The notes under the pieces were generated by a model, which had not been told where the DNA came from, searched no databases, and saw nothing but the letters and a program-made list of their open reading frames with translations. From assembly GCA_963555755.3 (NCBI GenBank), contig OY820905.2:2656001-2720000 (forward strand): a stretch of DNA of 64,000 bases, in the 5' to 3' direction. Both the position numbers and the translations under genes were made by a program. This document shows positions 1,283-22,813 of this stretch, in pieces. Numbering within the stretch: the first letter of the stretch is position 1; the number at the start of each line of letters is the position of its first letter. The stretch comes from Nitrospirales bacterium (GTDB lineage Bacteria; Nitrospirota; Nitrospiria; Nitrospirales; UBA8639).

Positions 1283-2647
1283 GAGGTGAGTTGAAAAGAC
1301 GCGGCGTCTCGGGTTGAAATGGTTGTTCTCACAACACCCACCTTCAACCACAAAGGAGAGACGCCACGATGGAGAAGCGTAACAAAACAGAGCAAGAAGA
1401 GCGAGGAGGCCAAGACGAACTCACCGCATTGATTCGGACGGGAGCCCAGAAGCTGATTGCCCAAGCACTGAAAGTGGAGGTGGCTGACTTGTTAGCTACC
1501 TATGCTGGCCAGCAGGATGAGCAGGGCCACGCGCGGGTCGTCCTCAGTGGCCATCACCCGACGCGAGAGATTCAGACAGGGATCGGGCCGGTGACGGTGC
1601 AGGTCCCCAAGGTGCGCAGTCGAGCGGGGGAGCCTGCCACCTTTCGGTCGGCCTTGGTTCCACCCTACGTACGCAAGACGCGGAACTTGGAAGCGGCCCT
1701 CCCCTGGCTGTATTTGAAGGGCATCTCGACCGGGGAGATGCAGGCGGCTTTGGAAGTGTGAGTCGGTTCCGAGGCGAAGGGCCTCTCCGCTAGTACCATC
1801 GCCCGGTTAAAGCAGGTGTGGCGAGAAGAATACGACACCTGGCGGCAGCGACGGCTCGATGATGCACAGTGGGTCTATATTGGGGTGGATGGGATTTACA
1901 GTGGCCTGCGGGCAGAGACGCAACGGCTCTGTGCGTGAGTCGTCATTGGCGTAAAGAGCCAGGGGGACAAGCAGTTCTTGGCGATCGAAGACGGGGTGCG
2001 TGAGTCCACCCAGAGCTGGCGGGAAGTGCTGCTGCATCTCAAAGCCCGGGGGATGCACGCTCCCGAATTGGCCATTGGCGATGGCGCGATGGGCTTCTGG
2101 GCAGCTGTGGAGGAAATCTATCCGACCACGCGCCAGCAGCGGTGTTGGGTGCACAAGACGATCAATGTGCTGAATGCATTGCCGAAGAGTGGGCAGCCGA
2201 AGGCGAAACAGGCGTTGCAGGAGATCTGGCGGGCCGAGACCAAAACCGCTGCCACCCGCGCCTTCGATCGCTTTCTTCGAACCTATGAGGCCAAGTATCC
2301 GAAGGCCACCGCGTGTTTAGAAAAAGATCGGGAGGAGTTGCTGACATTCTATGCGTTTCCGGCTTCGCACTGGCAGAGTCTTCGCACCACGAATCCAATT
2401 GAATCGACCTTTGGAACAATTCGCCATCGGACCAAGCGGACCAAGGGCTGCCTGACTCGTGATGGCCTGTTACAGATGATGGTCAAGCTGGGACGATGTG
2501 CGGAGAAAAACTGGCGCCGCCTCCGGGGATTCAAGGAGTTGGAAAAAGTTATCACGGGCATTCAATGTACTGATGGCATCGAGGAAGCCAAGCTTGATCC
2601 GGTCGCCGCGTAATCAACAGCTCAGACACCAGATTTGACAATAGCTC
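1283..2647 (+). mobile_element. IS256-family element, transposase pseudogene (1369-2613, two in-frame TGA)
   Basis: Motifs LYLKGISTG, IGDGAMGFW, QRCWVHK, RTTNPIESTF. Imperfect ends GAGGTGAGTTGAAAA... and ...TTTGACAATAGCTC. No matching target duplication. Confidence 0.9.
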
Positions 2648-2832
2648 GTTTTTTCGCCGCTGGAGGTGGATCACCCGGGCATGCCGATCCCCAGATCCCC
2701 CCCCTCAATTTCGATGAGGCGGTGAACCCAGGGAAGGAAAATAACTCGCGAATCGATTTGGGATTTTTCATGGCGTGAGTTTACCCGTAAAGTGAACCAA
2801 TTTTCACCCCCCACCGAATCTCTCAATACCTA

Positions 2833-3006
2833 CATGAATGCTATGGTTTTCACTTTGTGGAACGCAGGATTCCGCCACACGTTTCCGCGTAGACCCATAT
2901 TTGTAATCTCAGATATACCTGAATATGGCAGTGAACTAGGCTCTTTATCCTTTTCCTTATGCTCATCTAACTCTTCTGGAGTTGGCACTGAAACTGGTAG
3001 TGTCAT
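2833..3006 (-). pseudogene. 5' fragment of an AT-rich hypothetical gene
   Basis: GAGGT RBS and ATG at 3006 (MTLPVSVPTPEELDEHKEK...); composition changes near 2832. Confidence 0.4.
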
Positions 3007-3020
3007 AATTTACCTCAATC

Positions 3021-3053
3021 ATAGAGTGGACAAGAAATTTTTGTCCACTCTAT
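3021..3053. terminator. Hairpin downstream of the outer-membrane protein gene
   Basis: ATAGAGTGGACAA-N7-TTGTCCACTCTAT. Confidence 0.6.
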
Positions 3054-3065
3054 TTCTCACCTAAG

Positions 3066-3991
3066 CTAGAATGCATACTTCATACTTAAAGTCATTGCCC
3101 AGAAAGATAAATCATTAGTCATAGCGTTATACTTCACCATATCGGCACGTTTGTTGTGAGATGCGTGGCTTCTTAGTTGATCCCATGCTACTGGATCACC
3201 TGAGAAATTACCTAAATCTGTCCATCTAAACTTTAAACCTACAGACAAAGGTTCAGTCCACTGGTAATCAACTCCTGCAATCGCTTGCCAGCCCATCATT
3301 ACATCAGAGAAAGTATTTCTACCAATAGAAGTAGTACCAGCTAGTTTAGCATTTAATGCATACCATCAGCTGCTATCTGCACCATCACCCGTAAAGTATC
3401 GCACCATCAAAGGTACTGATTTTGGCAGGGTCAGACTCCCTGGCCCACCTTGAGTAGTAGGCCATATCAACTTTAGCCATACCAACACCAACCCCAATGT
3501 AAGGTGTAAACTTGGACGAGTTATGAAAATCATAGTAAACATTCGCAAATAAGTTATGCGAAGTTAAACTATCTACAGCAGCTTCTAGTGCTGACAGCTC
3601 TTGAAGTTGTTTGGCATCTGCACCATCACTAGCTACACTATCTCGATCAGTACCTATATTATTGTGGCCTCTGTAGAAGTACTCACCTTCAAATCTGAGA
3701 TGATTCCACTTATAACCAGCTGATGCACCAGCCATTACGCCCCAGTTACTACCAAACTGTGACATCCAAGAATCACCAGCTGGGTTAGGACCACATTCAC
3801 CACCTGCTGTTTGACTATCATCAGGGTTTATAAATTGGTCACACTTGGAAGGATGATCGTTATCTTTCCCAGTTACACTCATTTCAGAGCCATCAGCCAC
3901 TCCCATATCCAGACCAATATACCAACCATCAGCAGCAAATGCTGGACTCGCTACTGCTAGCATAAAAGCTACTAACATTAAGAAATCTCAT
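3066..3991 (-). pseudogene. Opacity/Msp4-like outer-membrane beta-barrel protein, frameshifted
   Basis: ORFs 3385-3978 and 3066-3299 are two halves: signal peptide, GWYIG, RFEGEY, ANVYYDF, FTPYIGVGVG, then WQAIAGVDY and terminal YAF. Indels near 3360-3390 and at the start (AAGGAG RBS then ATG 3991, out of frame). Confidence 0.75.
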
Positions 3992-4024
3992 TTTAATCTC
4001 CTTTAGATTAAATACGATTAATAT

Positions 4025-4414
4025 TTAGAGCTTAGATAAACTCTTTTGGTAAAAATAATAACCAGCATTCTTATTAGGATTGTAATCATAATAAATTATC
4101 TTTACCTTTTTATCTTCATAAGAATTGTACTTAAACATAAAATCATGCTCATCCTCTAATGAGTTACCATGAAAATCAATGCTAGATAAGATACCTTTTC
4201 CTAAGAATACTCCTTTAGGAATGTTAATAAAAGACAATTCAGCTCGATTCAGACTGGCAGTATCTTTATGAGATAATAGACGCTTCTTACTCTTTAACTT
4301 GCTCTCTATCTGCTTGAGTAGATCCTTAAATTCCTTAACTGGAATCTTATCAGCAATTTCAACTGAATCAGAAGTAATAATCTTATAATTATCCACTGTA
4401 TTAATCTTTATCAC
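4025..4414 (-). CDS. AT-rich phage-like hypothetical protein
   Basis: 129 aa ORF with GGAGG RBS. Confidence 0.6.
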   Translation of the reverse strand: MIKINTVDNYKIITSDSVEIADKIPVKEFKDLLKQIESKLKSKKRLLSHKDTASLNRAELSFINIPKGVFLGKGILSSIDFHGNSLEDEHDFMFKYNSYEDKKVKIIYYDYNPNKNAGYYFYQKSLSKL

Positions 4415-4835
4415 CTCCTCTTCTATGAGGAGTTATCTTGATAGTCTTGCCTATGGATTCGCCTTCAAAAACTTCGTAGATACTAGTAACTTCGAAAGTT
4501 CTAGTCACAAGCTTTTTGTGTGAGTTGATAAAGTGCACTTTACCTAATGAAGATTTTTTTATGTCATCAGCAAATTTAGCTAGAGCTTCAATCGCAGGCT
4601 CCTCCTCAAATGAAGCTGAATCACCTCGCTGAGAATATCTATCAGGCCAATTTATGACCATTTTAGTATCTAAATAAGTACTACCACCGTATTCAATAAA
4701 GTCTCCATAGAAATCCCTATTAGAACTATCACTAGTCTCAATTGAGACTGGAGTTCCTATTAATTCTATATACTCATCACGCAAGCTTCTTTGCCTGTCC
4801 AGCACTGATCTCTAGAACTCATAAGTGGTAGCCAT
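4401..4835 (-). CDS. AT-rich phage-like hypothetical protein (possible head-completion type; start region frameshifted)
   Basis: ORF 4401-4805 overlapping the next gene; upstream ATG near 4835 is out of frame. Confidence 0.45.
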
Positions 4836-4838
4836 AAA

Positions 4839-5271
4839 TTACTCCACGCTAGTTATTTCACCTAAAAACCATATTTTCTTCAATGAATTGTAGTCATAAT
4901 TTACGTTGTAGTGGTTTCCATAATCATCTCTTAGAATAATTATAAAACAAATATCACCACTCGTCTTAAATCCATAAATAAAAGATTTAATTTTCCCACC
5001 TTCTATTTCCACATTTCGTTTCATGGACTTAAAAGAAGTAGGTGCATGATTTATAATCTTTTGCACATATTCTGTGGGCACTAAGTATCTGATAATGAAT
5101 CCTGATCCATCTTCATTGTACTCAAACTTACGTAGAGTCATATTAATCAGTATTGGAAGCATTTGAGAATGCCTCACCATCCTTAGGGTAAAAACTATCA
5201 AAATCATCTGAACTAAGCTCTTCAGTGGATGAGTATCCATCATCAGAAGATACTGCTTCTATTATCTTCAT
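4839..5271 (-). CDS. Hypothetical protein, paralog A (frameshifted 5' part)
   Basis: Shares P(T/R)S(F/L)KSM, GG(K/E)I.SF..G....GDICF...LRD and YN...K.W(F/Y)L.....T motifs with 5444-5830. Confidence 0.6.
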
Positions 5272-5937
5272 AAATACCTCATATATAACCAAGGTAAACT
5301 ATCCAAATTGTCTAAGCTTTAGGTAATGAGCTAATAGGTATATTACCTATAAGTTCTCCATCTGCAAAATATCTACCAATTTATTAGCAAACTTCATAAT
5401 CTCTCTAGCTTCAGTAGCATGTGGAAACTTAGTTCTTAGCAAATTAACCTAACCTAGTTACATCATCTAAGTACCAGCTCTTCTTCACCGAATTATTATA
5501 ATACAATAATTTGTAGTGATTGTCATCATTATTGTCTCTCAGAACAACCTGAAAGCAAATATCACCATCTTCCGTTAATCCCCAAGAAAAGGATAAAATC
5601 TCACCACCATCTTCATCTAAATCTTTCGCCATACTTTTAAGACTTCTAGGAGACAATTTTAATAATCTTACCACATCTTCATCTCTAACAGTGTACTTGA
5701 CAGCATATCCCATAGTTACAGTATCAATATGATTACTCCGATGCATAAATTTCAGAAGATTTACCATATCAATATTCTTCAGACGCTGTGGATAAAAACT
5801 ATTATCCAGCATCTCTTCAATCATTATCTTCATAAATACCTCATATATAACCAAGGTAAACTAACAAAATTGTCTAAGTTTTCGGTAATGAACTAATAGG
5901 TATATTAAATATAAGTTCTCCATCTGGTAAAATATCC
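5261..5937. repeat. ~115-bp direct repeat (about 5261-5373 and 5823-5936) preceding each paralog
   Basis: ATTATCTTCATAAATACCTCATATATAACCAAGGTAAACTA...TATAAGTTCTCCATCTG occurs twice. Confidence 0.9.
5444..5830 (-). CDS. Hypothetical protein, paralog B
   Basis: GAGGT RBS then ATGAAGATAAT, the same start context as paralog A. Confidence 0.65.
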   Translation of the reverse strand, partial: KIMIEEMLDNSFYPQRLKNIDMVNLLKFMHRSNHIDTVTMGYAVKYTVRDEDVVRLLKLSPRSLKSMAKDLDEDGGEILSFSWGLTEDGDICFQVVLRDNNDDNHYKLLYYNNSVKKSWYLDDVTRLG

Positions 5938-5938
5938 G

Positions 5939-6610
5939 TTGGGATTCACCACAGAAGAGTTCAACGCGATCATGGTCGGGGCGACTATTAGCGGCAGGAC
6001 GCTGAACTTCCCGACAGCGGACGGCGGCAGCATAGCCATCAATCTCCCGGCTGACATGGATACTCAGGACGGCGTGGTGAGTAGCGGATCATTCAGCGCG
6101 GACGGCATGATGCTGAATCTGGTGCTCGAAGACGGCACGGAGGTGCATATACCGGTTCCGGAGCTGTTCAGGGGAGCAGGACTCAGCGAGGCTGTGGTCA
6201 ACGATCTGATCGCCGCCGCGGGCCACGCATCTGCTACCGACGTGGCAAGTCTGGATGCCAGAGTGGCTGCGTTGGAGGGGGTGCCGCCGGGCATGCACTT
6301 GAGGTACTTCGGATTCTCAGCCGATCGGTCCGTCATGACAGCGGAGTTCGCAGATGCGAGTTCGTCGATGACCGACGAGGGAACGCTGCCCGCAAATACG
6401 GACGCAGCGTACCCGTACTTCGCGGTGCCGGAGACTGTCGGTGCGCCCGACAGCCTTCTGTTCCCGCCGAACCCGGTAGACCAGCTCTCATTCTACCAGC
6501 GCCAGGACGACACGGTGGACGACACCAACGGGGACCCGCATATCGTCTACATCGGATTCAACCAACTGCCGCCGGGTGGCGTCAGAGCCGTGAACCTCAT
6601 CTACAACTAA
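5939..6610 (+). pseudogene. 5'-truncated acidic phage-like hypothetical protein (GC-rich)
   Basis: Frame is open from the abrupt AT-to-GC junction at ~5938; no RBS or real start. Confidence 0.55.
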
Positions 6611-6621
6611 GGGAGCCGAGA

Positions 6622-7443
6622 ATGTTTCGACGCCTGACCTTGATCGCCGCCGCGGTCCTTCTGCCCCTGCTCGGCTGGGCGCAGACCTACACGCCGAACG
6701 CCGGCCAGCTCCCGTTCTACGGGCCGCTGCGCTCGGATTACATCGCTCCGGCCGGCAGCAAGATGCTGGACGCGCGGGATCTGGACGGGTTGTACGTCAA
6801 GTCGATCATCTTGAACGGGGCGATTCTCACCGCCACGTACCAGGACGCTGACAACGCCGAGCATTTGCTCAACGTCACCGTTGGCGGGGGCGGTGGGTTC
6901 GACGGTGTCCTGACGACCGCCGCGTACGAGTCCACCACGGAGGTGCTGACGCTCACCACGTCCACTGGTGGAGTGGTGACCGCCAGCTTCGCCGAGGTCA
7001 CCACCGCGGCCGACCTAACGGCTGCGCTTGAGGCGCTGGCAACGGTGCCGTCCGGCGGGGTGCCCGGTGACGTTCTGACGTGGCAGAGCGACGATACGTG
7101 GGACTGGGCGGCACCGGTCGGCGACGGCGTCGTTGAGGACGGTTCGGTGTCGGGCACGACGCTGACCCTGGACCGGACCGGGAGTCTGTCGGACGTGGTC
7201 ATCACCGGGCTGCCGCAGGACGGCGTGGTCGAGGACGGTTCGGTGTCGGGCACGACGCTGACGTTGGACAGGACGGTGGGCGCGGACGTGGTCATCACCG
7301 GGCTGCCGAGCGGAGGCGCCGCGGACGGCGTGGTCGAGGACGGTTCGGTGTCGGGCACGACGCTGACGCTCATCAGGACGATCGGCGGCGACGTGACGAT
7401 CACCGGTCTGCCACAAGGAGCCGCCGATGGCGTCGTGACCACT
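6622..7443 (+). pseudogene. Secreted-type protein with [16 protein letters not shown] repeats, 3'-truncated by an IS630 fragment
   Basis: Signal peptide MFRRLTLIAAAVLLPLLGWAQ; repeats begin at 7123, 7219, 7324 and 7426. Confidence 0.7.
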
Positions 7444-8144
7444 GTCATCGTGCCACAGCGGCCCTTCTTCATCGGCAGACCTGGCTGCGTACGATCCAAG
7501 GCCTGAATCGAACTCTTCTCGTCCACACACAGCACCACGGCTTTTTCGGGGGGATTGAGATATAGCCCCACGACGTCGTGTCATTTCTCCTCAAACCGGG
7601 GGTCCGTGCTGACTTTAAAGTGCTTCACCAGATGGGGCTTCAAGCCATGGGCCTGCCAGACGCGCTGGACAAAACTATGCTGACAGCCTACGGCTTGCGC
7701 CATGGACCGGGTGGACCAATGGGTCGCCCCTTTGGGTGTGCCCTGGGTGGTCCGGCGAAGAATCTTCTGCCTCAACCTCGTTTGCTCTTCCGTCTTCTGG
7801 CCGCCGTGGTTGGCGCCGCGTGGCGCATCTTTGATGATCCCGGGGTAGCCTTGCGCCGCATACCGATTGCGCCATCGCCCCACTTTATGCGGATCAATCC
7901 CAAGCACCAGACTGATCTCTTTGTTGGTGTTCCCGGCCGCGGCAAGAAGAACAATCTTTGAACGTTCCACCAATCGGACCATACTGCGGCGACTTCGGAT
8001 CTGTCGTTGTAACTGCCTACGGTCCCTGGCTTCTAACGTGATAGGCACGGCTTGACGCATACGCCCCTCCTCAACACGAGCATGAATGATATCGTGATGA
8101 TACCAGAATGCGTTATAATGTACAATCTATTTAGGACACTACAC
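7444..8144 (-). mobile_element. IS630-family element, 5' half only (truncated copy of 12556-13744)
   Basis: Closely similar to 13045-13744; end ...TTAGGACACTACAC followed by TA; in-frame TGA at 7581-7583 where the intact copy has TTA. Confidence 0.9.
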
Positions 8145-8257
8145 TAGCTCCTTCAACGGCCCTCGGTAATTCCCAGTCCCTGTGATGGGGCCCATGCTGC
8201 GGGAGAGCCCCCCAACCGGTGAGACACACTCGGCAAAGAACAGATTCGCATTGCCGC

Positions 8258-8287
8258 TTGACAGTGAACATCTGTTCACCGTATCCT
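8258..8287 (+). promoter_or_regulatory. Sigma70-type promoter of lexA with an embedded GAAC-N4-GTTC operator
   Basis: TTGACA (8258), GTGAACATCTGTTCAC palindrome (8264-8279), TATCCT (8282); ATG 9 nt later. Confidence 0.75.
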
Positions 8288-8296: not shown

Positions 8297-8872
8297 ATGG
8301 ATTCCCGCTCGCATTTCCCGGCCATTGTCACGTTCTACCGCACGCACCAGCGCATGCCCACCTACCGGGAGATCATGCGGCTGGCCGGGTTTCGCTCCAC
8401 CAATGCCGCCGCGAAGCTCGTCAAGAAGCTCCTCGCCGCCCAACTTCTCCAGCAAGACTCCACGGGACGGCTCCTGCCCAGTCGCTTCTTTTCCGAGATC
8501 CGCGTGTTAGGCACGGTGGAAGCGGGCCTCCCCGCGCCGGCGGAAGAGGGCCACCTCGACACCATCAATCTGGAGGCACACCTCATCCGCAACCCGCAGG
8601 CCACCTACCTACTTCGGGTTCAAGGTGAGTCCATGATCGACGCCGGAATTCTCCCAGGGGATGCCGTCCTGGTGGAGCGCCGGAAGGAGGCCAAGACGGG
8701 GGACATCGTGATTGCCGAGGTCGATGGCGAGTGGACGATGAAAGTGTTCCGCAAGCGGGGGCGGCGCGTCTTACTGGAACCCGCGAACCCACACTTCCCG
8801 ACGATTGTCCCGAAGCAGCACCTGCGCATTGCCGCCGTGGTCATCGCGGTGATACGCACCTATCCCACCTAA
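8297..8872 (+). CDS. lexA: LexA-family repressor (HTH plus S24 autopeptidase)
   Basis: PTYREIM helix, VEAG cleavage site, GESM serine, EWTMK lysine. Confidence 0.9.
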   Translation: MDSRSHFPAIVTFYRTHQRMPTYREIMRLAGFRSTNAAAKLVKKLLAAQLLQQDSTGRLLPSRFFSEIRVLGTVEAGLPAPAEEGHLDTINLEAHLIRNPQATYLLRVQGESMIDAGILPGDAVLVERRKEAKTGDIVIAEVDGEWTMKVFRKRGRRVLLEPANPHFPTIVPKQHLRIAAVVIAVIRTYPT

Positions 8873-8890: not shown

Positions 8891-10844
8891 ATGCTGGCGG
8901 CCCTGGGGACAGCGATTCCGTCAACGCGCGGTGGCGCGAGCCCCAAGCCCACGAGCCCGGCTCCACCCGATGACACCCCGGCTCCCTACGAACGCCGCCG
9001 TCCCGAAGAGACCACGCTCTACCAGGTGATCCAAGATCACGTCGACACCTTCCTGGCTCAAGTCGAACAGGAAACCGGAACAGGCCTGCCCCAGTTTGTC
9101 AAAGACGAGTTCGAGGCGTTTCTGGAAGGCGGGATCTGAGGGCTCGCGAAACAATACCTTCCCAGAATTCGCGCCCAGATTTGGGTTAGATTGAGTCGAT
9201 CTGAGGGAGCAAAACTGCAGGCGTAGCAACGCCCACGTGGAGGATTTTGCGAGTGAAGATCGGCTCAAGATGGCCTGAAGCTGGGATGCGAAAATGGGAA
9301 GGTATTGTTTCGCGAGCCCTGAGCGCACGGGGTTCTGCGCCTGCGATGTGGGGACCGCGCCCATGAGAAGCTGGTGGCCTTCTCCTGTAAACGCCGCGGG
9401 TTTTGCCCGGCCTGTGGCGCCAGACGCATGGCCGAGACTGCCGCCCATCTGGTGGAGCAGGTGATCCCTCACGTGCCCGTGCGCCAATGGGTGGTCTCGT
9501 GTCCTATCCCCTTGCGGCATCTGTTCGCGACCCAGCCGCAGCGGCTTTCCCCGGTGTTGCAAGTCATTCACCGCGCCCTCTCGACCTTCGTGATCCACCA
9601 CGCCGGCTTGACCCATGCCCAGGCGCAAACCGGCGCGGTGACCCTCATCCAACGCTTTGGCTCCGCCGCGAATCTCAACATTCATCTGCATTGCCTGATG
9701 CTCGATGGCGTCTATCGCCTCACCGACGGGGTCCCGATCTTTCAGCCCGTGCCGGCCCCTACCGCTGACCAGCTTCAGGCATTACTCACGCGGATCATCA
9801 CGCGGCTGCTGAAGATGCTCACGCGCCAAGGCGCGCTCATGGAAGAAGTCTCCGAGATTCCGTATCTGACCAATCCCGATGCCGATCCCGCCTTGGCCCC
9901 GCTGCAGGCAGCGGCTTGCACCTACCGCATTGCCCTTGGCCCCCGAGCCGGCCAAAAAGTGCTGACGTGGAAAGATCCATCATTGCGCCTGGCCAGTCAG
10001 GAGGCGCCACAATCAAAGGGCGGTGTCAGTGCGCAAGGGTTCAGTCTGCATGCGGACACATGGTGTGGTCCCCAGCCGCGACAACAACTCGAACAGCTCT
10101 GTCGCGACATCACCCGTCCGGCCTTGGGCCACAAACGCCTGCGCCGGACCCCAGCCGGCGAGGTCGTCCTCCAACTCAAAACGCCGTATCGCGATGGCAC
10201 CACCCATCTGGTGATGAGCCCGCTGGAATTCCTGCAACGCCTCGCGGCCCTCGTCCCGCGTCCCCGACTCCATCTCATTCGCTTCCATGGCGTGCTGGCG
10301 CCCAACGCGGCGCTGCGGTCCCAGATCGTGCCCGGCGAGGCCGATCAGGCGACGGACCCCGCCAATGAGGAGGGCGATTCCCTCGCTCCTTCAACACGAG
10401 CCCGCCTGAGTTGGGCCCAATGACTCAAACGCGTCTTCGCCATCGATATCACCACCTGCCCGCAGTGCGGCGGGCCATTGACCATCCTCGCGGCGATCGA
10501 GGATCCTGCGGTGATCATCAAGATTCTCACGCACCTGGGCTTGCCGAGCCGAGCCCCACCACGAGCCCCGGCCCGCCTCGACGCGTTCATGCAGACAGCC
10601 TAAGCTTCCACCTGGATTCCGGTTCGGGGCCCGAACCGACACCCCCTTTTTTTGCCCAGTTCCCCTTCGCACACGCCACAATGGTGCGTCATGCTGGGCC
10701 TGATCCATGGCAAAAGAGCCAGTCAGGCCCGTCGCGCAGGGTAATTCCTTCATGGCAGACTCTGGAGTTGGCAGATTGACCCCACAATGAGGTCTTTGGT
10801 ACTTTCCGGTTCAGTCAAAAAGGGCTTTTAAAATTCCTATTCCC
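8891..10844 (+). mobile_element. ISCR/IS91-like rolling-circle element copy 1 (transposase ~8891-10603 disrupted by a MITE and TGA stops)
   Basis: YERRRPE, SCKRRGFCPAC, QRFGSAANLNIHLH (HUH), YRDGTTH, LIRFHGVLAP, CPQCGG. The 3' end GGCTTTTAAAATTCCTATTCCC resembles ISCR oriIS. Confidence 0.9.
9140..9319. mobile_element. 180-bp MITE-like element inside the ISCR transposase
   Basis: Terminal IR GGGCTCGCGAAACAATACCTTCCC / GGGAAGGTATTGTTTCGCGAGCCC; TGA on both sides. Confidence 0.9.
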
Positions 10845-10846
10845 GA

Positions 10847-12523: not shown

Positions 12524-12555
12524 GTGCCAAAAATTATTTACACTTTTTGTAACTA

Positions 12556-13744
12556 GTGTAGTGTCCTAAACAGGTAGTGCATTAAGTGCGGCCTTCGCCC
12601 GGCGGACCTTTTTCAGAATTGTTTCCGCCGATTTCGTCCACACAAACGGTTTTGGGGCCGTATTGTTCTGGGCAATATGGTCACCAATCGCCGCTTCCAA
12701 TTCTTCCACGGACCGAAACACTCCGCGCCGGATCTGCTTGGCCGTGATGTTGGCGAAGAACCGTTCTACCAAATTCAGCCACGACGAACTGGTCGGGATA
12801 AAGTGGAAATGGACCCGCGGGTGCTTGGCAAGCCACGCCTGGACCTTCGCATGTTTATGCGTGGCATAATTATCCATGATAATGTGCAAGTCGACCGTCT
12901 TGTCCACGGTTCGATCAATCAGGGACAGAAACTTGAGAAATTCCTGATGCCGGTGTCGCGGCATACATTTGCCCAGAATCTGTCCGCTCAAGACATCCAG
13001 CGCCGCAAAGAGGGTACTCGTGCCATGGCGCTTATAATCGTGAGTCATCGTTCCACAGCGGCCCTTCTTCATCGGCAGGCCTGGCTGCGTACGATCCAAG
13101 GCCTGAATCGAACTCTTCTCGTCGACACACAGCACCACGGCTTTTTCGGGGGGATTCAAATAGAGCCCCACGACGTCGTGTAATTTCTCCTCAAACCGGG
13201 GGTCATTGCTGATTTTAAAGTGTTTCACCAGATGGGGCTTCAAGCCATGGGCTTTCCAGACGCGCTGGACGAAACTATGCTGACAGCCCACAGCCTGTGC
13301 CATGGATCGGGTGGACCAGTGGGTCGCGCCCTTGGGTTTGTCCTGGGTGGTGCGGCGAAGAATCTTCTGCCTCAGCCGCGTCTGGTCTTCCGTCTTCTTG
13401 CCGCCGTGGTTGGCTCCGCGCGGCGCATCTTTGAGGATGCCAGGGTATCCTTGCGCTGCATACCGATTGCGCCATCGCCCCACTTTATGCGGATCAATCC
13501 CCAGCACCAGACTAATCTCTTTGTTGGTATTCCCGGCTGCGGCAAGCAGAACAATCTTTGAGCGCTCCACCAATCGGACCGCACTGCGGCGACTTCGGGT
13601 ATGCCGTTGTAACTGCTGACGGTCCCCAGCTCTTAAGGTGATCGGCACGGCTTGACGCATACTCCCCTCCTCAACACGAGCATGAATAATATCGTGATGC
13701 TAGCAGAATGCGTTATAATATACAATCTATTTAGGACACTACAC
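12556..13744 (-). mobile_element. IS630-family element, intact transposase 12566-13660
   Basis: VDEKS, THDYKRHGT, IMDNYATHK, SSWLNLVERFF; TIR GTGTAGTGTCCTAAA; TA duplication. Confidence 0.95.
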
Positions 13745-13746
13745 TA

Positions 13747-15594
13747 GTGTCTGAGAGAAAACGCCGGTTTTTTCGGGCATGTTCCGGGATATTTTTTCCA
13801 CACCTCTCTTCGGCCTCCTCTGTCGTGCTCACGAACGGCTTTTCTCGTCCACCATTCGTGCCATGTCCTGGATGGGAGCCCTCCCCAGGACGTCGCAGTC
13901 GATTCGTGACAGAGGTCGCCCTCGGGTGCAGGATTCCTTCCGGCAGCTTGCAGCGCTAGGCCGCTTGCTTGAGTTGCGGCTTACGGCGTCGGTCGTGTTC
14001 CAGCAACCGATGGCCAATCTTGTGGAGATTGTACGCCAAGATCCCCAACCCGACGTAGCGCTGAAACCCCGCCCATCCTTTGTCAGGACACCGATTCAAC
14101 CCATGGTGTTCCAAGGCCTTGATGTCCGATTCAATCGCACTGTGCTGCTGCCGTAAGCGGCGAAAGGTCGGCTGCGTTTCCCGGGCCTGATCGGCTTGGG
14201 AACGCCGCCCTTTTTGGGGCATGATGACTTCGGGAATAAACAGCTCGAGGAGTTCGCGATCCTGTTGTGCGCTGAACCCCTTATCCACACTCCAACTCTG
14301 GATCTGGCCGTCCCCCAATCGGGCCAACAGCCGATCGGCGAGAGGCAGGGTTTCCTTCACATCACTGCTCTGGGTCATGATCTTATAGTCCAGGATCAAA
14401 CTATATTGATCCGTGGTGATGAGTAATTTATGGCCGAGTTCCACCGCCGGGGCGACTTTCCCCTTGTTGATCCATTCGGTATGCGGTTCAAACAGGGACA
14501 AGAGTTTGTCGGCAGGGGGAATCGTTTCGCCCTGCAGGACCCGTCGGTCGATAAGATCCAGATGCTTGATGAGCATCTCGTGATAGTATTCCACCTCGGC
14601 CAGGATGTTTTGCTCCAGTAGGGAGCAGGTCTGGGGCCGAAGAAGCAGTAGGCTGGCAAAGACTTTCTGCTCCACCGCGTAGGCTTTCTGCAGATAGGCC
14701 GTGACCGCCGCGTCGAGCCGCTCGCGCTTCTTGGCGCCCCCGCCATGGGAGATTGTCCCACAGGTTCGAAGCAAGGTCTTCAGTTGCTTCCGCCACGTGT
14801 AGGCCTTGCGCCACCCCGAGTGCTCCAGGTGCTGCGCCAGCCGCGGGAGCAAAACCAAACATTTCCGACAGGCATCCCACAGCAGATTCAAATCCGTGGG
14901 GAAATGGACGTTGGTCTCCAGCACGTAGGTATCACTTTTGGCGTGAATGGGCTCGTCGTCTTTTTTTTTAACCAGCGGCCGCCCGGCCTGGACCACAATA
15001 GCATTGATGGCCGCCAAGAAGGCCTCGTCGACGTGGCAGACAGTCTCACTCAACGTCTTTTGATGAAACCCTTTCCCAAACTCTCCACGGAAGGGGGACT
15101 CCAAACCCATGATGCGCCGGAGTAATGTGTCATAGTGAACCAGGTATTCCACCCGGTCATAGTCACAATCCAAGGCGAGGCGGACGACGCCCAGTACCAG
15201 AACATGCCAGAGGTCCATCCCCGGCCGTCCTGTCGCCGGCTTCTTCGTCCCCTGGATCTTCTGTTCCAGCAAGGCAAAGATTTGCTCATTGACGTCGGGG
15301 GTCTGAAAAATCCACTGGAGCCCCCGCAACACCGGCGGCAATTCATCTCGACTCTTCGGGGGAATGGGCACTTCCTCAATTGGGGTCTGCCCTAAGTCCA
15401 ACTGCCGTTCAAATCGTTGCCGCATCGTATCGATCCTCCCTCAACCAACACTGGGCACTCGGTGAATGTTGAGGCAGTTTACACGAAAAACAGGCTGTTT
15501 TCAGGGATTTCTCGCACATACCGTGAAAGATTCACAACCCAAAAACCGAGAAAACCCGCGTCACGCTTAGGCAATCCTGTTTTCTCTCAGACAC
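13747..15594 (-). mobile_element. ISNCY-type (ISDol1-like) element, transposase 13956-15425
   Basis: TIR GTGTCTGAGAGAAAAC / GTTTTCTCTCAGACAC; TAACTA duplicated at 12550 and 15595; ETNVHFPTD, DKGF and LEHHGL motifs. Confidence 0.85.
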
Positions 15595-16977
15595 TAACTA
15601 CTCAGGTGTGGTGAACTTTGTCGTTCAGCGTGTGGGCATAAAGGGGTGGCCGCACATGGCCTGTGAAATGGCTTGCAGGATGTTGCCGCCCTGCTTTCTC
15701 GCCGTCGAAAGATAGCCCCGTATGCGAGCGAACTGGATGGCGCCTGAAAGCGTTCGGAAACAGCCCGAGATTTTGAGGCGGAGCTTGATCATCCGGATAT
15801 CCTGTTCCGCCAGATTGTTGGTGAAAGGCACCTGGTTGTCATGAAAAAACGCCAGCACGGAGGCTTCATGCTCGCCCAGCCGGGCAAGGAGATTTTGGGC
15901 CTTGGTCTTTTGGGGCCGGCCTCGTGTCTTATGCCGAGGCGTGGCCGGCAGGGGGTTGGCCTGCCAACCGAGCGTGAGAAGATCTCGGTACTGTTTCAGC
16001 CACGGGGTTTTCTGTTCTCCAGTTAGCTGTGAGGGGTGCTTGCTGACACACTCGTTCATCTCAAGCAACAGATCAAACCTGCGTTTGGCCCATGGTTGGT
16101 CGTGCTGCTCGAACAGGCACGTCAGTTCACGCAAATGATGGGCGTTACAGAGGCCGTGGGCACAGTCATAGGTGAGAGAGGGTTTCCAGAAGTCGTGGAG
16201 CAGGTGGCCAGAAAAGTCCGGGATGATCTTGAACTCCTCGATCGCCGCTCGTCCCCGTTTTTCATGCACGCCGTAAAAGGTCAACGTGTCGGTGCTGGCG
16301 CTGTGGAGCCAGTGGAGTGTTCCGGCCGTGCGGACACCACTTTCATCGGCATGGAGAATTGGACTCTTGCCGAGAGCCTCGTTGACCGCCGTCTCAAACG
16401 GCGCGAGGTGCTCATCGCATCGACGGGTGGCGTCCACAATGGTGGCGTCGCTGACAGGGGCGCCATACAGGTCAGCCATCATTTGGCTGATGCGGCGCAA
16501 GGGGATCACCTGTTGGTTCTGGAGATAGACCAGGAGGCTGCGAAATCTGGGACCGTACTGTGCCGGCGCAGGCAGGTCATCAGGAAATGACGCCGTGACC
16601 GAGCGGCCGCATTGGGGGCAGGTTTTGCTTGCTCCCCGATATTCGGTGACGTCGAGTGTAGGTTCCGGCAGGTCAAAGAGCTGTCGGCGTTCATAGCCGA
16701 TGACCGTCTCGTTGGTGAGGTCGGCATGGCAGGAACAGGAGTGAACGGGCAGTGTGACACGGTGGGCTGGGTGTTCCACCTGCTTCAGAGTCTGGCCGGG
16801 ATGCCCCGTTTGGCCGCCCGGCTTTTTCCCGGACGGTGTGCGCAGGCTCGTGGTTCGGGGCTTGGCTGGTCCATCGGACGAGGGCGGCTTACTCCTGTTT
16901 CGACTGGTTGTGTCGAGCCGCTGCTTCAGGTCGGTGACTTGCGTGGTCAGCGCCTGCACCTGTTCCTTCAGCGCCAG
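15595..16977 (-). mobile_element. IS66-like transposase element, 5'-truncated by IS256
   Basis: SKPPSSD, KPGGQ.GH.G, LHADESG, CNAHHLREL, FTNNLAEQDIR; the terminus GTAACTACTCAGG is split between 12549 and 15595. Confidence 0.85.
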
Positions 16978-18289
16978 GGGGCTTGTCAAGTTAACTGTGT
17001 AACTGAATTGTGGGCTAGATTGTTGGCACTCGATCTCCTAAGAACATGGCGAATTGGTTGAGAGCCCGCTTCCAGTGCGGAATGGGCATCGTCCATTTCT
17101 GCGCAATCCGCTGCATCCCTAAATACCGCACCTTCAGAATTGATTCATCTGTCGGAAAGGCTCCCCGACTTTTCAGGACTTTGCGTAACGAAAAATTCAC
17201 CGATTCGATCGCATTGGTGGTATAGATGGCTTTCCTGCTTTCTGGGGGATAATCAAAAAAGATCGTGAGCCGACTCCAAGGCCGTCGCCACGTCGCACTG
17301 ATCGTCGGATATTTCGCATCCCACATGGCGGCAAATGTCTCCAACGCGCTTTCCGCCTCCGACAACGTCGCGGCGCCATAGATGGCTCGTCGCTCTTTCC
17401 ACACCACATACCGCAAGGATTGCCGTACCTTATGCACAATGCACAGTTGCACCTGGGTGTGTGGGAACACCGTCTCCAAGGCTTCTGGCAAGCCCCCACG
17501 CCCAGCAACGCAAGCCACAAAACAATCCCGGACCCCGCGCTGCTGGAGTTCGGTGAAGATCGACAGCCAGAACTTGGCCCCTTCGGTCTCACGGATCCAG
17601 CGCCCCAGGAGTGCTTTCTCTCCCTGTAGATTCACCCCTAAGGCCCCATACACGGCTTTATTCTTGACGACGCCCTCCTGCCGAGACTTCACACACAGAC
17701 AATCGAAGTACAGAATCGGATACACGGCATCTAAGGGCCGACGCTGCCAGAGGCGCACATCCTCCCACACCGCATCAGTGATGGCCGAAATGAGCGTGGG
17801 CGACACCTCCACGTCATAGAGTTCTTCCAGATGCCCTTGAATGTCGCGAGTCGTCAGCCCTCGGGCAGACAACGCCAGGACCTTCTCATCAAACCCTTCC
17901 ACGCGCCGTTGGCGTGTGGGCACCAACAGCGGCTCAAAGCTGCCTTGACGATCACGGGGCACCTGGAGCGGGAGATCCCCGTGGGCCGTCTGCACCGTTT
18001 TCGACGTGCTCCCATTGCGGGCATTGCCGGATCCACGGCCCTCAGGGGCATGAGGGGCATAGCCCCAATGCTCGGTCAGTTCTGCCCGCAGGGCGCGTTC
18101 TACGAGCCGTTTCGTGAGACGCTTCACCAGCCCATGTTTGCCGAATATGTCTTCGGGTGACGCACACCCTTCCCATAGCTCATCTAACAGCACATCGGTT
18201 TTGCTTGGGGTCTTGGCTCTGGTCATCAGTCCTCCTTCTTCAATGGATCCGTCATGATAACCAGTTACACAGTTTATCTTACAGGCCCC
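16978..18289 (-). mobile_element. IS256-family element (second isoform), degenerate transposase ~17015-18226
   Basis: TIR GGGGCTTGTCAAGTTAACTGTGTAACTG / CAGTTACACAGTTTATCTTACAGGCCCC; VPRDR.GSFEP, QLCIVH, IYTTNAIES. Confidence 0.9.
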
Positions 18290-18367
18290 TTCCCGACGAT
18301 TGTCCCGAAGCAGCACCTGCGCATTGCCGCCGTGGTCATCGCGGTGATACGCACTTATCCCACCTAA
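18290..18367 (+). pseudogene. lexA: 3' end of a second lexA copy
   Basis: Nearly identical to 8795-8872. Confidence 0.9.
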
Positions 18368-18385
18368 GCCCACGGCGCCCGAACG

Positions 18386-20329
18386 ATGCTGGCGGCCCTG
18401 GGGACAGCGATTCCGTCAACGCGCGGTGGCGCGTGCCCCAAGCCCGTCTCCACCCGCTGACACCCCGGCTCCCTACGAACGCCGCCGTCCCGAAGAGACC
18501 ACGCTCTACCAGGTGAGCCAAGATCACGTCGACACCTTCTTGGCCCAAGTCGAACAGGAAACGGGGTCGGGGCTGCCTCAGTTTGTCAAAGACGAGTTCG
18601 AGGCATTTCTGGAAGGCGGGATCTGAGGGCTCGCGAAACAATACCTTCCCAGAATTCGCGCCCAGATTTGGGGCAGATTGAGTCGAGCTGAGGGAGCAAA
18701 ACCGCAGGCGTAGCACCGCCCACGTGGAGGATTGTGCGAGTGAAGATCGGCTCAAGATGGCCTGAAGCTGGGATGCGAAAAGGGGAAGGTATTGTTTCGC
18801 GAGCCCTGAGCGCACGGGGTTCTGCGCCTGCGATGTGGGGACTGCGCCCATGAGAAGCTGGTGGCCTTCTCCTGTAACCGCCGCGGGTTTTGCCCGGCCT
18901 GTGGCGCCAGACGCATGGCCGAGACTGCCGCCCATCTGGTGGAGCAGGTGATCCCTCACGTGCCCGTGCGCCAATGGGTGGTCTCGTGTCCTATCCCCTT
19001 GCGGCATCTGTTCGCGACCCAGCCGCAGCGGCTTTCCCCGGTGTTGCAGGGCATCCACCGCGCCCTCTCGACCTTCGTGATCCACCACGCCGGCTTGCCC
19101 CATGCCCAGGCGCAAACCGGCGCGGTGCCCCGCATCCAACGCTTTGGCTCCGCCGCGACTCTCAACATTCATCTGCATTGCCGGATGCTCGATGGCGTCT
19201 ATCGCCTCACCGACGGGGTCCCGATCTTTCAGCCCGTGCCGGCCCCTACCGCTGACCAGCTTCAGGCATTACTCACGCGGATCATCACGCGGCTGCTGAA
19301 GATGCTCACGCGCCAAGGCGCGCTCATGGAAGAAGTCTCCGAGATTCCGTATCTGACCAATCCCGATGCCGATCCCGCCTTGGCCCCGCTGCAGGCAGCG
19401 GCTTGCACCTACCGCATTGCCCTTGGCCCCCGAGCCGGCCAAAAAGTGCTGACGTGGAAAGATCCATCATTGCGCCTGGCCAGTCAGGAGGCGCCACAAT
19501 CAAAGGGCGGTGTCAGTGCGCAAGGGTTCAGTCTGCATGCGGACACATGGTGTGGTCCCCAGCCGCGACAACAACTCGAACAGCTCTGTCGCGACATCAC
19601 CCGTCCGGCCTTGGGCCACAAACGCCTGCGCCGGACACCAGCCGGCGAGGTCGTCCTCCAACTCAAAACGCCGTATCGCGATGGCACCACCCATCTGGTG
19701 ATGAGCCCACTGGAATTCCTGCAACGCCTCGCGGCCCTCGTCCCGCGTCCCCGACTCCCTCTCATTCGCTTCCATGGCGTGCTGGCGCCCAACGCGGCGC
19801 TGCGGTCCCAGATCGTGCCCGGCGAGGCCGATCAGGCGACGGACCCCGCCAATGAGGAGGGCGATGCCCTCGCTCCTTCAACACGAGCCCGCCTAAACTG
19901 GGCGCAATGACTCAAACGTGTCTTCGCCATCGATATCACCACCTGCCCGCAGTGCGGCGGGCCATTGACCATCCTCGCGGCGATCGAGGATCCTGCGGTG
20001 ATCATCAAGATTCTCACGCACCTGGGCTTGCCGAGCCAAGCCCCACCACGAGCCCCGGCCCGCCTCGACGCGTTCATGCAGACAGCCTAAGCTTCCACCT
20101 GGATTCCGGTTCGGGGCCCGAACCGACACCCCCCCTTTGCCCAGTTCCCCTTCGCACACGCCACAATGGTGCGTCATGCTGGGCCTGATCCATGGCAAAA
20201 GAGCCAGTCAGGCCCGTCGCGCAGGGTCATTCCTTCATGGCAGACTCTGGAGTTGGCAGATTGACCCCACAATGAGGTCTTTGGTACTTTCCGGTTCAGT
20301 CAAAAAGGGCTTTTAAAATTCCTATTCCC
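18386..20329 (+). mobile_element. ISCR/IS91-like element copy 2 (pseudogene; same MITE at 18627-18806)
   Basis: Near-identical to 8891-10844 with the same oriIS-like end. Confidence 0.9.
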
Positions 20330-20478
20330 GGTAGCAGAATAATTTCCCACCGTAGGCAGACTTCCAGCATCTCCTCGCCGATGCCTAATCGAGCACAGAT
20401 TTCTTCTCGGCGCATCATGCCTTGTGTGATGATTTCTGCCGTGACTTGTTCCAGTGTGGGTGGGGATTCGTCATTCAT
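20330..20478 (-). pseudogene. cbpM: CbpM-like chaperone modulator, 3'-truncated by the ISCR end
   Basis: MerR-like REEICARLGI...LEVCLRWEII directly downstream of a DnaJ C-terminal fragment. Confidence 0.6.
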
Positions 20479-20722
20479 GGGTGGCCTCACGAAGAAGGGA
20501 TGAACGGGGATCAGGATGATCGAATTTAGCTAATTGTTCGTATAGATGGCGCTCTTCGGACGAAGGTGTTTGGGGTGTCATAATTTCCAGCACGACAAAT
20601 TGGTTGCCATGGCCCCCTGCTCGTTTGGGAAGCCCCTTTCCTTTTAAACGCATACGTTGTTGCGGTTGACTGCCGGGAGGAATTTTTAGTCGGACAGATC
20701 CGGATAGAGTGGGCACCTGTCC
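20471..20722 (-). pseudogene. cbpA: C-terminal fragment of DnaJ-class protein CbpA
   Basis: VPTLSGSVRLKIPPGSQ...MRLKGKGLP...GNQFVVL. Confidence 0.75.
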
Positions 20723-21092
20723 CACACTTCCATCAATTCTTGTGGATGAATCGCAAAAAAGACTTCAACACACTCTAGATGTAAGTAACAATGCGGCCCA
20801 AAAGATCCAGCAGTCTATAGAAGATATGGCCATAGAATGGGGTCTCAAACAGTATCCACGGAAACGTGAACAATCAAAAGAAGCTGCTGAATTAATGTAT
20901 GGTTCTATACTTGCTGATAACTCTAATTGGCTATTTGATTTAAACGATGAGGATCGTTCTTACATTGAAAAGATGAAAGCGGAACTAAGAAAATCACCAA
21001 ACAACCCGTTTACCCTTTCCATCTCGAAGCACCAACTCTTAAAGGCAATAGCCATTTTAGAATTAAATAAAGGAGGTATTATTAATGTCTGA
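20723..21092 (+). pseudogene. 5'-truncated AT-rich hypothetical protein
   Basis: Open frame from the junction at ~20723; overlaps the next gene. Confidence 0.45.
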
Positions 21093-21450
21093 ATTTGACA
21101 AGAAATTTGATAAATCATTTAACAATACAGTTAAAGATGAAGGCGAAATACCTATAGACGCGAAAAAGACGGCTATCATGGGTGGCGTAGCAGCTGGTGC
21201 GACAGCGGCGGGTGGAGCTGCAGCCGTTGTAGCAGCCGTCGGAACTGCTAGTACCGGAACTGCAATTGCAACTCTAAGCGGTGCAGCTGCTACAAGCGCT
21301 ACTTTGGCTTGGCTTGGAGGGGGAGCCATCGCTGCGGGTGGCGGAGGTGTAGCATTGGGCGCTGCTATCCTCACTGGTGGAGGAGCTGTTGTTGCTTGCG
21401 GTGTTGGCTACGGTCTCTACAAATGGAAGTGCAAGAAATTGAAAAAATAA
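21085..21450 (+). CDS. Glycine/alanine-zipper membrane protein
   Basis: AAGGAGG RBS; GTASTGTAIATLSGAAATSATLAWLGGGAIAAGGGG motif. Confidence 0.75.
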   Translation: MSEFDKKFDKSFNNTVKDEGEIPIDAKKTAIMGGVAAGATAAGGAAAVVAAVGTASTGTAIATLSGAAATSATLAWLGGGAIAAGGGGVALGAAILTGGGAVVACGVGYGLYKWKCKKLKK

Positions 21451-21602
21451 GCCTTCACCTAAATAGAGTTCTCACTGATCTTGGTATTACAGGTGATGGT
21501 TGGGGAATGTATGGGCACTTCCGTTAAAATACTTAACAAATTGCATAAGCTCGGGTATTTTGCTCTGCTACGTGCTTCAAAAATTCCGTTTACGCAGGTC
21601 TT

Positions 21603-21681
21603 TAATGTCTGCTTTCAGTATGAAGCGGACATTAGAGTTGATTGTGCTTGAACGTCCGCTAACCAGCGAAAGCGGACATTC
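21603..21681. repeat. Paired REP-like hairpins (AAYGTCYGCT...AGCGGACATT)
   Basis: Hairpins at 21603-21634 and 21650-21681. Confidence 0.6.
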
Positions 21682-21689
21682 GGATAATT

Positions 21690-22813
21690 TCACCGACGGG
21701 GTCCCGATCTTTCAGCCCGTGCCGGCCCCTACCGCTGACCAGCTTCAGGCATTACTCACGCGGATCATCACGCGGCTGCTGAAGATGCTCACGCGCCAAG
21801 GCGCGCTCATGGAAGAAGTCTCCGAGATTCCGTATCTGACCAATCCCGATGCCGATCCCGCCTTGGCCCCGCTGCAGGCAGCGGCTTGCACCTACCGCAT
21901 TGCCCTTGGCCCCCGAGCCGGCCAAAAAGTGCTGACGTGGAAAGATCCATCATTGCGCCTGGCCAGTCAGGAGGCGCCACAATCAAAGGGCGGTGTCAGT
22001 GCGCAAGGGTTCAGTCTGCATGCGGACACATGGTGTGGTCCCCAGCAGCGACAACAACTCGAACAGCTCTGTCGCGACATCACCCGTCCGGCCTTGGGCC
22101 ACAAACGCCTGCGCCGGACCCCAGCCGGCGAGGTCGTCCTCCAACTCAAAACCCCGTATCGCGATGGCACCACCCATCTGGTGATGAGCCCGCTGGAATT
22201 CCTGCAACGCCTCGCGGCCCTCGTCCCGCGTCCCCGACTCCATCTCATTCGCTTCCATGGCGTGCTGGCGCCCAACGCGGCGCTGCGGTCCCAGATCGTG
22301 CCCGGCGAGGCCGATCAGGCGACGGACCCCGCCAATGAGGAGGGCGATGCCCTCGCTCCTTCAACACGAGCCCGCCTAAACTGGGCGCAATGACTCAAAC
22401 GTGTCTTCGCCATCGATATCACCACCTGCCCGCAGTGCGGCGGGCCATTGACCATCCTCGCGGCGATCGAGGATCCTGCGGTGATCATCAAGATTCTCAC
22501 GCACCTGGGCTTGCCGAGCCGAGCCCCACCACGAGCCCCGGCCCGCCTCGACGCGTTCATGCAGACAGCCTAAGCTTCCACCTGGATTCCGGTTCGGGGC
22601 CCGAACCGACACCCCCTTTTTTGCCCAGTTCCCCTTCGCACACGCCACAATGGTGCGTCATGCTGGGCCTGATCCATGGCAAAAGAGCCAGTCAGGCCCG
22701 TCGCGCAGGGTCATTCCTTCATGGCAGACTCTGGAGGTGGCAGATTGCCCCCACAATGAGGTCTTTGGTACTTTCCGGTTCAGTCAAAAAGGGCTTTTAA
22801 AATTCCTATTCCC
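21690..22813 (+). mobile_element. ISCR/IS91-like element copy 3, 5'-truncated
   Basis: Matches 9720-10844 from TCACCGACGGG to TTCCTATTCCC. Confidence 0.9.

What the first reader, a model, noticed from the sequence alone, without database searches (positions are those of the whole stretch)
1283..22813. Degraded IS copies share a directional A:T->C:G substitution signature (possible repeat-directed mutagenesis)
Seen: manually aligning ISCR copy 1 (9140-9720) with copy 2 (18627-19207) gives about 17 substitutions, about 12 of them T->G or A->C in copy 2 (e.g. CTG->CGG, CTC->CGC, AAT->ACT, AAA->AAC). They cluster in this stretch; the next ~700 bp are nearly identical. In-frame stops at 1759, 1936, 7581 and 10421/19908/22391 are TGA at Leu positions; at 7581 the intact IS630 copy has TTA. 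Against family consensus as I recall it, IS256-2 shows LDELW, TEHWG, DAVWE, ALSARG, LKVRY, IS66 shows RELTC, KPSL, and ISCR shows EGGI, LCRDI. Each is explainable by one T->G or A->C change. The IS630 at 12.5 kb, the IS4 and host genes look intact. Established: mutT loss gives A:T->C:G transversions genome-wide, and fungal RIP mutates repeats but by C->T. Inference: either a mutT-like spectrum exposed in neutral DNA or a patchy anti-transposon hypermutation system; I know of no such system described in bacteria.
Basis: partly seen in the sequence, partly recalled or inferred. Interest (0 to 1): 0.85.

Follow-up and report, generated by a model that had tools for sequence, protein, structure and literature searches.

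The report
Mutator-like A→C scars on jumping genes
In this bacterium and two sister species, older jumping genes are riddled with one mutation type (A:T to C:G) that the host's own genes do not show in excess, likely because the elements spent part of their history in cells that let oxidised guanine into DNA.

Summary
IS91/ISCR copy 2 has 12 private A:T→C:G changes and copy 1 none. IS256-2 carries 20; 18 are polarised by at least 6 of 7 outgroups. A single-copy ISL3 shows the same bias independently in three species (35/87, 45/97, 34/78). It is not a plain present-day mutator. mutT, mutM and mutS are intact and a short mutY is present. Core fourfold sites (41/316), intergenic DNA, host fragments beside the ISL3 and young IS copies (2/17) look ordinary. 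It is not RIP-like either: high-copy young families and non-mobile duplicates are spared, and hits are random on both strands with only a weak context. Best reading (0.45): mutT-type 8-oxo-dGTP mutagenesis in past mutator cells or hosts, carried out by mobile elements while core alleles were purged. An element-directed host process (0.25) and uracil/abasic-site bypass in this dUTPase-less family (0.15) remain open. My searches found no report in papers or in this scan's notes.

The parts
1283..2700 (+). IS256-1, broken transposase (TGA at 1759 and 1936, both shared with the copy at C1:888724)
   Evidence: Pfam PF00872; 20 A<>C differences to its one near copy, unpolarised
7444..8150 (-). IS630-1, truncated, TTA>TGA at 7581
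   Evidence: HTH Pfams; TTA in two intact copies; modest bias
8297..8872 (+). LexA/UmuD-like S24 peptidase gene that precedes the IS91 element in several copies; passenger without a clear bias
   Evidence: PF00717; copies; 8 A<>C of 28 single-codon differences
8945..10845 (+). IS91/ISCR copy 1: no private A:T>C:G, 13 shared with copy 2
   Evidence: PF04986, PF14319
12553..13720 (-). IS630-2, intact and young (negative control)
   Evidence: 0 differences to near copies; a contig joint 12551>13743 that skips it in 2 runs, short side 30 letters
13745..15596 (-). IS4-type element, open frame but 6 private nonsynonymous A:T>C:G of 7
   Evidence: PF01609; window letters seen in run contigs
15596..16978 (-). 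IS66, divergent subfamily, weaker bias
   Evidence: PF03050; exact match in run contigs
16978..18288 (-). IS256-2: 20 A:T>C:G (7 shared with the sister copy at C1:4363209, 13 private) against 2-4 other changes
   Evidence: PF00872; different flanks in all four copies
18289..20330 (+). 3' end of the S24 gene plus IS91/ISCR copy 2: 12 private A:T>C:G, 11 of them in the 5' half
21690..22813 (+). IS91/ISCR copy 3 (3' part): 2 private A:T>C:G

Best explanation
Older mobile elements of this genus carry a directional A:T→C:G load that host DNA lacks, likely written by oxidised dGTP pairing with adenine (the mutT-type route) while the elements sat in mutator cells or hosts, and likely carried out of those cells by transposition. 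Shown: the load, its direction, its random two-strand distribution, its absence from core, intergenic and flanking DNA and from young copies, and that already-loaded elements were inserted at new sites. Inferred: the chemistry; that the exposure was in past mutator sublineages or neighbouring hosts; and a selective sieve, in which core alleles from such cells carry linked harmful changes and are lost while dead elements moved in trans keep their scars.
For: Purity: four loaded copies have 12, 10, 8 and 6 private nonsynonymous A>C with no nonsynonymous transition. mutT lines give 97% AT>CG (PMC12318082 section 9). Context is weak, with AAA 1.79, TAA 1.78 and 5'-G 0.78 among 350 sites. That is nearer the AA/TAA/CAA preference quoted for E. 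coli mutT (10.1101/2022.10.21.513255 passages) than the Pol IV 5'G/3'C rule. Hits are random and on both strands: 81 of 180 neighbours same-strand vs 92.5 expected. Sister copies have equal loads: 13/13 and 33/40/34. The bias depends on the host: the same ISL3 family has 124 nonsynonymous A>C vs 65 transitions in the 11-sequence cluster holding G000/G005/G006, but 8 vs 51 in 11 sequences of three low-GC clusters (my sums). The load predates insertion: 7 shared changes precede two separate IS256 insertions, and host fragments cut by the ISL3 are nearly clean. It covers DDE, HUH and RT-type elements (family labels outside the window mostly by eye). Today's spectrum is ordinary (2 of 17) and mutT is intact.
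Against: At the laboratory mutT rate (1.32e-8 per A:T per generation) a 2.4-4.8% load needs 1.8-3.6 million generations, long for a mutator. No mutT-less donor was shown: G006 and G001 lack a strong match but are 82% and 59% complete, and G006's core branch is ordinary. The sieve itself was not tested. A 3' adenine, the main E. coli mutT preference, is only 1.15-fold enriched (P=0.38). Clean flanks also fit an element-directed process.
Confidence: 0.45

Rival explanations
1. A host process aims A:T→C:G mutagenesis at resident mobile elements (an anti-transposon system working like fungal RIP but with another chemistry), acting intermittently or after a lag.
For: Sharp boundary: the ISL3 deviates at 18 of 171 conserved columns, 15 by A>C, and the adjacent xfp fragment at 2 of 145, 1 by A>C. 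At equal transition divergence (about 0.037) the ISL3 has about 4 times the A<>C of orthologous intergenic DNA. ISCR copy 1 has 0 vs copy 2 12, P=5e-4. Three species are loaded equally. DinB-like and ImuB-like polymerases are present (labels inferred).
Against: 132 of 152 copies of eight high-copy families are nearly unmutated. Non-mobile duplicates have A<>C 125/539, like the core, vs 133/307 for IS pairs. No motif, clustering or strand coordination. No candidate enzyme was found, though none was searched for systematically.
Confidence: 0.25
2. Uracil route: this family lacks a known dUTPase, dUTP is incorporated opposite A, glycosylases leave abasic sites, and where element DNA is copied without an intact partner strand a translesion polymerase inserts C, giving T>G (SBS17-like).
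For: PF00692 in 0 of 19 genomes of the family and in 8 of 8 of two other families; the control rang in 11 of 14. Three UDG-family genes. The route gives T>G in yeast through Rev1 (PMC13710866 passages) and in human SBS17 (abstract). 5'-A contexts AAA, AAG and AAC are raised. It would explain selectivity for mobile DNA.
Against: C insertion is a Rev1 property; bacterial bypass mostly inserts A (recalled). There is no strand coordination. Many prokaryotes lack dUTPase (PMC5122711 abstract). The dimeric-dUTPase search had no positive control.
Confidence: 0.15
3. Plain whole-cell mutator episodes in the direct ancestry of each species, visible only in neutral DNA.
For: Fourfold A>C is 2.35% per A:T (95% CI 1.7-3.2), which overlaps the IS256-2 interval (2.2-5.5%). 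Intergenic A>C is 20 vs C>A 7 on the G000 branch. Core contexts correlate weakly with the IS contexts (rho 0.45, P=0.095).
Against: 41 observed vs 77 (P=5e-6) or 58 (P=0.012) expected even with zero background. A>C is balanced by C>A at fourfold sites (41 vs 34). Synonymous A<>C divergence is 0.026 vs 0.019 and 0.024 for the other transversions. Intergenic A>C is 0.72% per A:T.
Confidence: 0.12
4. Sequencing or assembly artefact.
For: The IS256-2 and ISCR-2 variants were not individually displayed in run contigs.
Against: The same bias appears in independently assembled G005, G006 and metagenome loci. Variants are shared by descent between copies. Part of the window is matched exactly by run contigs. 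Young copies in the same assembly are clean.
Confidence: 0.03

Closest known systems
mutT-deficient mutator spectrum (8-oxo-dGTP:A; E. coli, P. aeruginosa; PMC12318082 section 9, 10.1101/2022.10.21.513255 and PMC10995721 passages)
   Same: Near-exclusive A:T>C:G, random, both strands, weak A/T-rich context.
   Different: mutT is intact, and the load is confined to older mobile elements, not genome-wide or current.
Pol IV (DinB) oxidised-nucleotide signature (PMC12318082 section 13)
   Same: A>C from oxidised dGTP, regionally uneven; a DinB-like gene is present.
   Different: Pol IV prefers 5'G/3'C and avoids AAA and TAA; here 5'G is depleted and AAA and TAA are the top contexts.
Fungal repeat-induced point mutation (RIP; recalled)
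   Same: Directional mutation load that kills transposon copies and spares most host genes.
   Different: RIP is C>T, context-specific, clustered and set off by duplication; here A>C, unclustered, with young high-copy families and host duplicates spared.
SBS17 / dUTPase-low yeast T>G (10.64898/2026.08.21.746158 abstract; PMC13710866 passages)
   Same: T>G class; the host lacks a detectable trimeric dUTPase and has glycosylases.
   Different: Needs Rev1-type C insertion; the context here is much flatter (SBS17 context recalled).

Membership tests
mutT mutator | mutT missing or broken | tested here: not met
   TIGR00586 99 bits over the 97.9 cut-off, no stop, Nudix box aligned with 10 relatives; enzyme activity untested
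mutT mutator | Spectrum dominated by A:T>C:G | tested here: met
   In loaded copies only
mutT mutator | Same excess in all neutral DNA | tested here: not met
   Fourfold 41/316, intergenic 20/122; only 43 kb could be polarised
mutT mutator | 5'-AA / TAA / CAA context | tested here: inconclusive
   AAA 1.79 and TAA 1.78, but CAA 0.95 and 3'-A 1.15
RIP-like repeat-directed mutagenesis | Depends on duplication; high-copy repeats hit hardest | tested here: not met
   the single-copy ISL3 lacks a target duplication and may once have had partners
RIP-like repeat-directed mutagenesis | Clustered, strand-coordinated, motif-specific hits | tested here: not met
RIP-like repeat-directed mutagenesis | Spares single-copy host DNA | tested here: met
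RIP-like repeat-directed mutagenesis | Dedicated enzyme required | not testable with these tools
   Needs genetics
Pol IV signature | 5'G / 3'C preference | tested here: not met
   5'G 0.78, 3'C 0.91
Uracil/abasic-site T>G route | No dUTPase, glycosylase present | tested here: met
   dimeric type inconclusive
Uracil/abasic-site T>G route | Polymerase inserting C opposite abasic sites | not testable with these tools
   Needs biochemistry
Biased gene conversion from diverged copies | Derived C/G alleles present in donor homologues | tested here: not met
   18 of 20 IS256-2 sites have A/T in at least 6 of 7 outgroups

The most novel reading that the evidence does not exclude
Nitrospirales run a prokaryotic counterpart of RIP: a host process that slowly and selectively drives A:T→C:G mutations into mobile elements of every chemistry, disabling them and raising their GC, while leaving host genes a few bases away untouched.
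Probability: 0.25. Interest if true: 0.93.

Novelty: new variant of a known kind. Interest (0 to 1): 0.68.

Why it matters
Insertion sequences and pseudogenes are routinely used to read a bacterium's neutral mutation spectrum and to date insertions. Here their spectrum departs about tenfold from the host's fourfold sites (my arithmetic), so that assumption fails in this genus. If it is a sieve, elements act as a record of mutator cells that left no other trace. If it is aimed, it would be a mutational defence against transposons in bacteria, which my searches did not find described.

Tried and rejected
Present-day mutT loss: gene intact. Loss of mutM or mutS: both over the cut-off. mutY is a 252-aa form under the TIGR01084 cut-off. 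GATC or other motif: none. Leading/lagging bias: 68 vs 51, not tested further. A deficit of synonymous A>C: only about 6-14% of possible changes are synonymous in most families, so the nonsynonymous excess is neutral. Templated conversion: rejected. Per-transposition error in today's host: 2 A>C in 87,049 A:T sites of young copies. Long-dead host pseudogenes as controls: none usable among 299 and 272 orthologous ORFs; most hits were start-site noise. Island passenger genes have no orthologues in 6 genus genomes and no close relative in viral contigs. The IS256 copies fetched from eight other genomes of the family are near-identical or over 10% apart, so uninformative. The ISL3 was not found by DNA in 80 order genomes at E<=1e-40; that sample did not include G005 or G006. 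Rfam: no hit. The 20:1 Fisher test overstates purity (2-4 other changes exist) and is not used. dup645 was scored as non-mobile but looks mobile; it was left in, which is conservative.
Full report
Setting. The window is G000:C1:2656001-2720000 of a 4.62-Mb, 99% complete genome. About 18% of it is repeated DNA. Named homologues point to Nitrospirales (inferred). Window 1-23 kb is a cluster of IS256, IS630, IS91/ISCR, IS4 and IS66 elements (Pfam).

Observation. IS256-2 has 13 private and 7 shared with a sister copy at another insertion site; 18 of the 20 have A/T in at least 6 of 7 outgroups. The sister has its own 13. Genome-wide, 461 of 2,115 private changes in repeats are A:T>C:G: 2.28 per 1,000 A:T sites, against 1.76 for A>G and 0.52 for A>T. 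That pool mixes loaded copies with divergent subfamilies. Contigs of four runs (at most 3 samples, 2 studies; one may be the assembly source) match 15567-16555 exactly and carry window letters at four IS4 variant sites.

Beyond the window and the species. A window scan against relatives flagged C1:3186452-3187876. This is a single-copy ISL3 (PF01610) that sits at different sites in G000, G005 and G006, with A:T>C:G in 35 of 87, 45 of 97 and 34 of 78 lineage-specific changes. I aligned 66 of 113 fetched ISL3 loci plus these three; L240, L241 and the most distant or partial loci were left out, and L244 was counted once as a duplicate. By my sums, nonsynonymous A>C vs transitions are 124 vs 65 in the 11-sequence cluster holding the three genomes, 90 vs 60 in a 9-sequence cluster of unknown host, and 8 vs 51 in 11 sequences of three low-GC clusters. 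A GC-0.55 trio had no A>C. The eight metagenome members of the first cluster are less loaded (3-11 each, with 2-10 apparent reverse changes). So the bias follows the host, not the IS family.

What is spared. G000 and G005 are about 95% identical and G006 about 91%. I held about 63 of 390 G005 contigs and 42 of 400 G006 contigs, plus search loci; 43,193 sites could be polarised. A>C is 14.5% of changes on the G000 branch and 14.3% on the G005 branch. At fourfold sites it is 41 of 316 (2.35% per A:T, balanced by 34 C>A); intergenic, 20 of 122 (0.72%). In 218 of 261 genes kept as correctly framed, synonymous A<>C divergence is 0.026, against 0.019 and 0.024 for the other transversions and 0.063 for transitions. 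Orthologous short repeats and intergenic DNA have 0.018-0.019 A<>C per site at 0.032-0.037 transitions; the ISL3 has about 0.077 at 0.037. The xfp fragment cut by the ISL3 is 99% identical to an intact protein and deviates at 2 of 145 conserved columns, against 18 of 171 for the IS, 15 of them by A>C. The right flank has 9 amino-acid differences, 1-2 by A>C, and G006's flank has 6 vs 7. These flank controls show only that the load predates the cut. Hand-picked two-copy pairs give A<>C 133 of 307 for 10 IS pairs and 125 of 539 for 21 non-IS pairs (P=2e-9; frames rough). In 132 of 152 copies of eight young families, 17 singletons are C>T 10, A>G 3, A>C 2, other 2.

Results against my reading. 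The fourfold interval (1.7-3.2%) overlaps that of IS256-2 (2.2-5.5%). Intergenic A>C outnumbers C>A 20 to 7 on the G000 branch. Core and IS contexts correlate weakly. A partial genome-wide contribution is therefore not excluded, and the loaded copies were chosen on their load.

Shape of the signature. Among 350 sites, 5' A (1.27) and T (1.31) are favoured and G is avoided (0.78; P=0.0009); AAA and TAA lead. Over 11 loaded copies, 81 of 180 neighbouring hits are on the same strand (92.5 expected), with no excess of close pairs (P=0.24) or patchiness (P=0.16). Changes are mostly nonsynonymous, as neutrality predicts. This is gradual, two-strand, unselected accumulation.

Repair genes. mutT is over the cut-off, open and conserved, directly after a short mutY. 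mutM and mutS are intact. Two Y-family genes exist, DinB-like and ImuB-like by my reading. No trimeric dUTPase was found in 19 genomes of the family, and G000 has three UDG-family genes.

Mechanism. Two chemistries in the papers I read give A:T>C:G: 8-oxo-dGTP opposite A and C inserted opposite uracil-derived abasic sites. Purity, randomness and context favour the first, and not its Pol IV form. To explain why only mobile DNA shows it, I infer a sieve: elements spend time in mutator cells or hosts and leave by transposition in trans, while core alleles from those cells are purged with their linked harmful changes. That loaded elements move is shown by the 7 shared changes before two insertions, by the clean flanks and by ISL3-ended miniature elements with target duplications. 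The cost is 1.8-3.6 million generations at laboratory rates and no donor in hand. An aimed host process explains the sharp boundary more simply but conflicts with the untouched young families; the uracil route explains selectivity but lacks a bacterial C-inserter and strand coordination.

Comparison and novelty. It works like a mutT mutator in spectrum and like RIP in outcome, and fails the membership tests of both. Five literature searches (listings only) returned no report of a mobile-element-restricted A:T>C:G load in bacteria; the library lacks most subscription papers. The scan's own notes had nothing on it. Papers seen: PMC12318082 (abstract, sections 9 and 13), 10.1101/2022.10.21.513255, PMC10995721 and PMC13710866 (passages), 10.64898/2026.08.21.746158 and PMC5122711 (abstracts). 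No supplements were read; the per-trinucleotide mutT tables in them would sharpen the context test.

Verdict. Real, directional, present in three species of the genus and biased to mobile elements; not an artefact, not a current mutT loss, not RIP by definition. New variant of a known kind, interest 0.68, with a 0.25 chance of a categorically new anti-transposon process.

Noticed in passing
G000 and 18 other genomes of its family: No PF00692 dUTPase in 0 of 19 genomes of the family or in 4 of a second family, while all 8 of two other families have one; G000 keeps three UDG-family genes.
   Followed up: partly
G000:C2: The 14-kb second contig is an IS end plus an 11.9-kb, 99.98% copy of C1:4141231-4153174, so likely an assembly bubble, not a plasmid.
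   Followed up: partly
G000:C1:458001-458313, 1758697-1759009 and other copies: A 310-bp miniature element with ISL3-like ends and short target duplications (17 copies aligned), also A<>C-rich.
   Followed up: partly
window 8297-8872; C1:4373402, 757015, 392007: A LexA/UmuD-like S24 gene lies directly upstream of the IS91 element in several copies, as if part of the unit.
   Followed up: partly
window 10421, 19908, 22391: The same TGA stop occurs in 8 of 16 listed IS91 copies, including one only 81% identical: a hotspot or spread by recombination.
   Followed up: no
window 12551-13743: Contigs of two runs join across IS630-2, suggesting an empty site in those samples and a very recent insertion.
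   Followed up: no
window 193-1464, 4025-5854, 5939-7506: Foreign-looking ORFs without Pfam hits: a phage tail-sheath-like fragment (recalled resemblance), four low-GC ORFs, and a protein with 32-35-residue repeats; no close relatives found.
   Followed up: partly
window 11957-12479: BrnT/BrnA toxin-antitoxin pair inside the IS cluster.
   Followed up: no
window 24506-24971, 40389-40625, 51503-51835 and genome-wide: Hundreds of 150-350-bp intergenic repeats (up to 449 hits per seed), shared with genus relatives.
   Followed up: partly
window about 53900: The cumulative GC-skew minimum of the chromosome (C1:2709913) lies in this window, so the replication origin may be near.
   Followed up: no
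G021, G024, G027, G030: All four genomes of one genus in another family lack a strong mutT match; candidates for checking an A>C-rich core spectrum.
   Followed up: no
G000:C1:3185943-3188675: xfp 5' fragment, ISL3 and the 3' part of a symporter/binding-protein fusion are joined without a target duplication, implying an IS-mediated deletion of phosphoketolase.
   Followed up: yes
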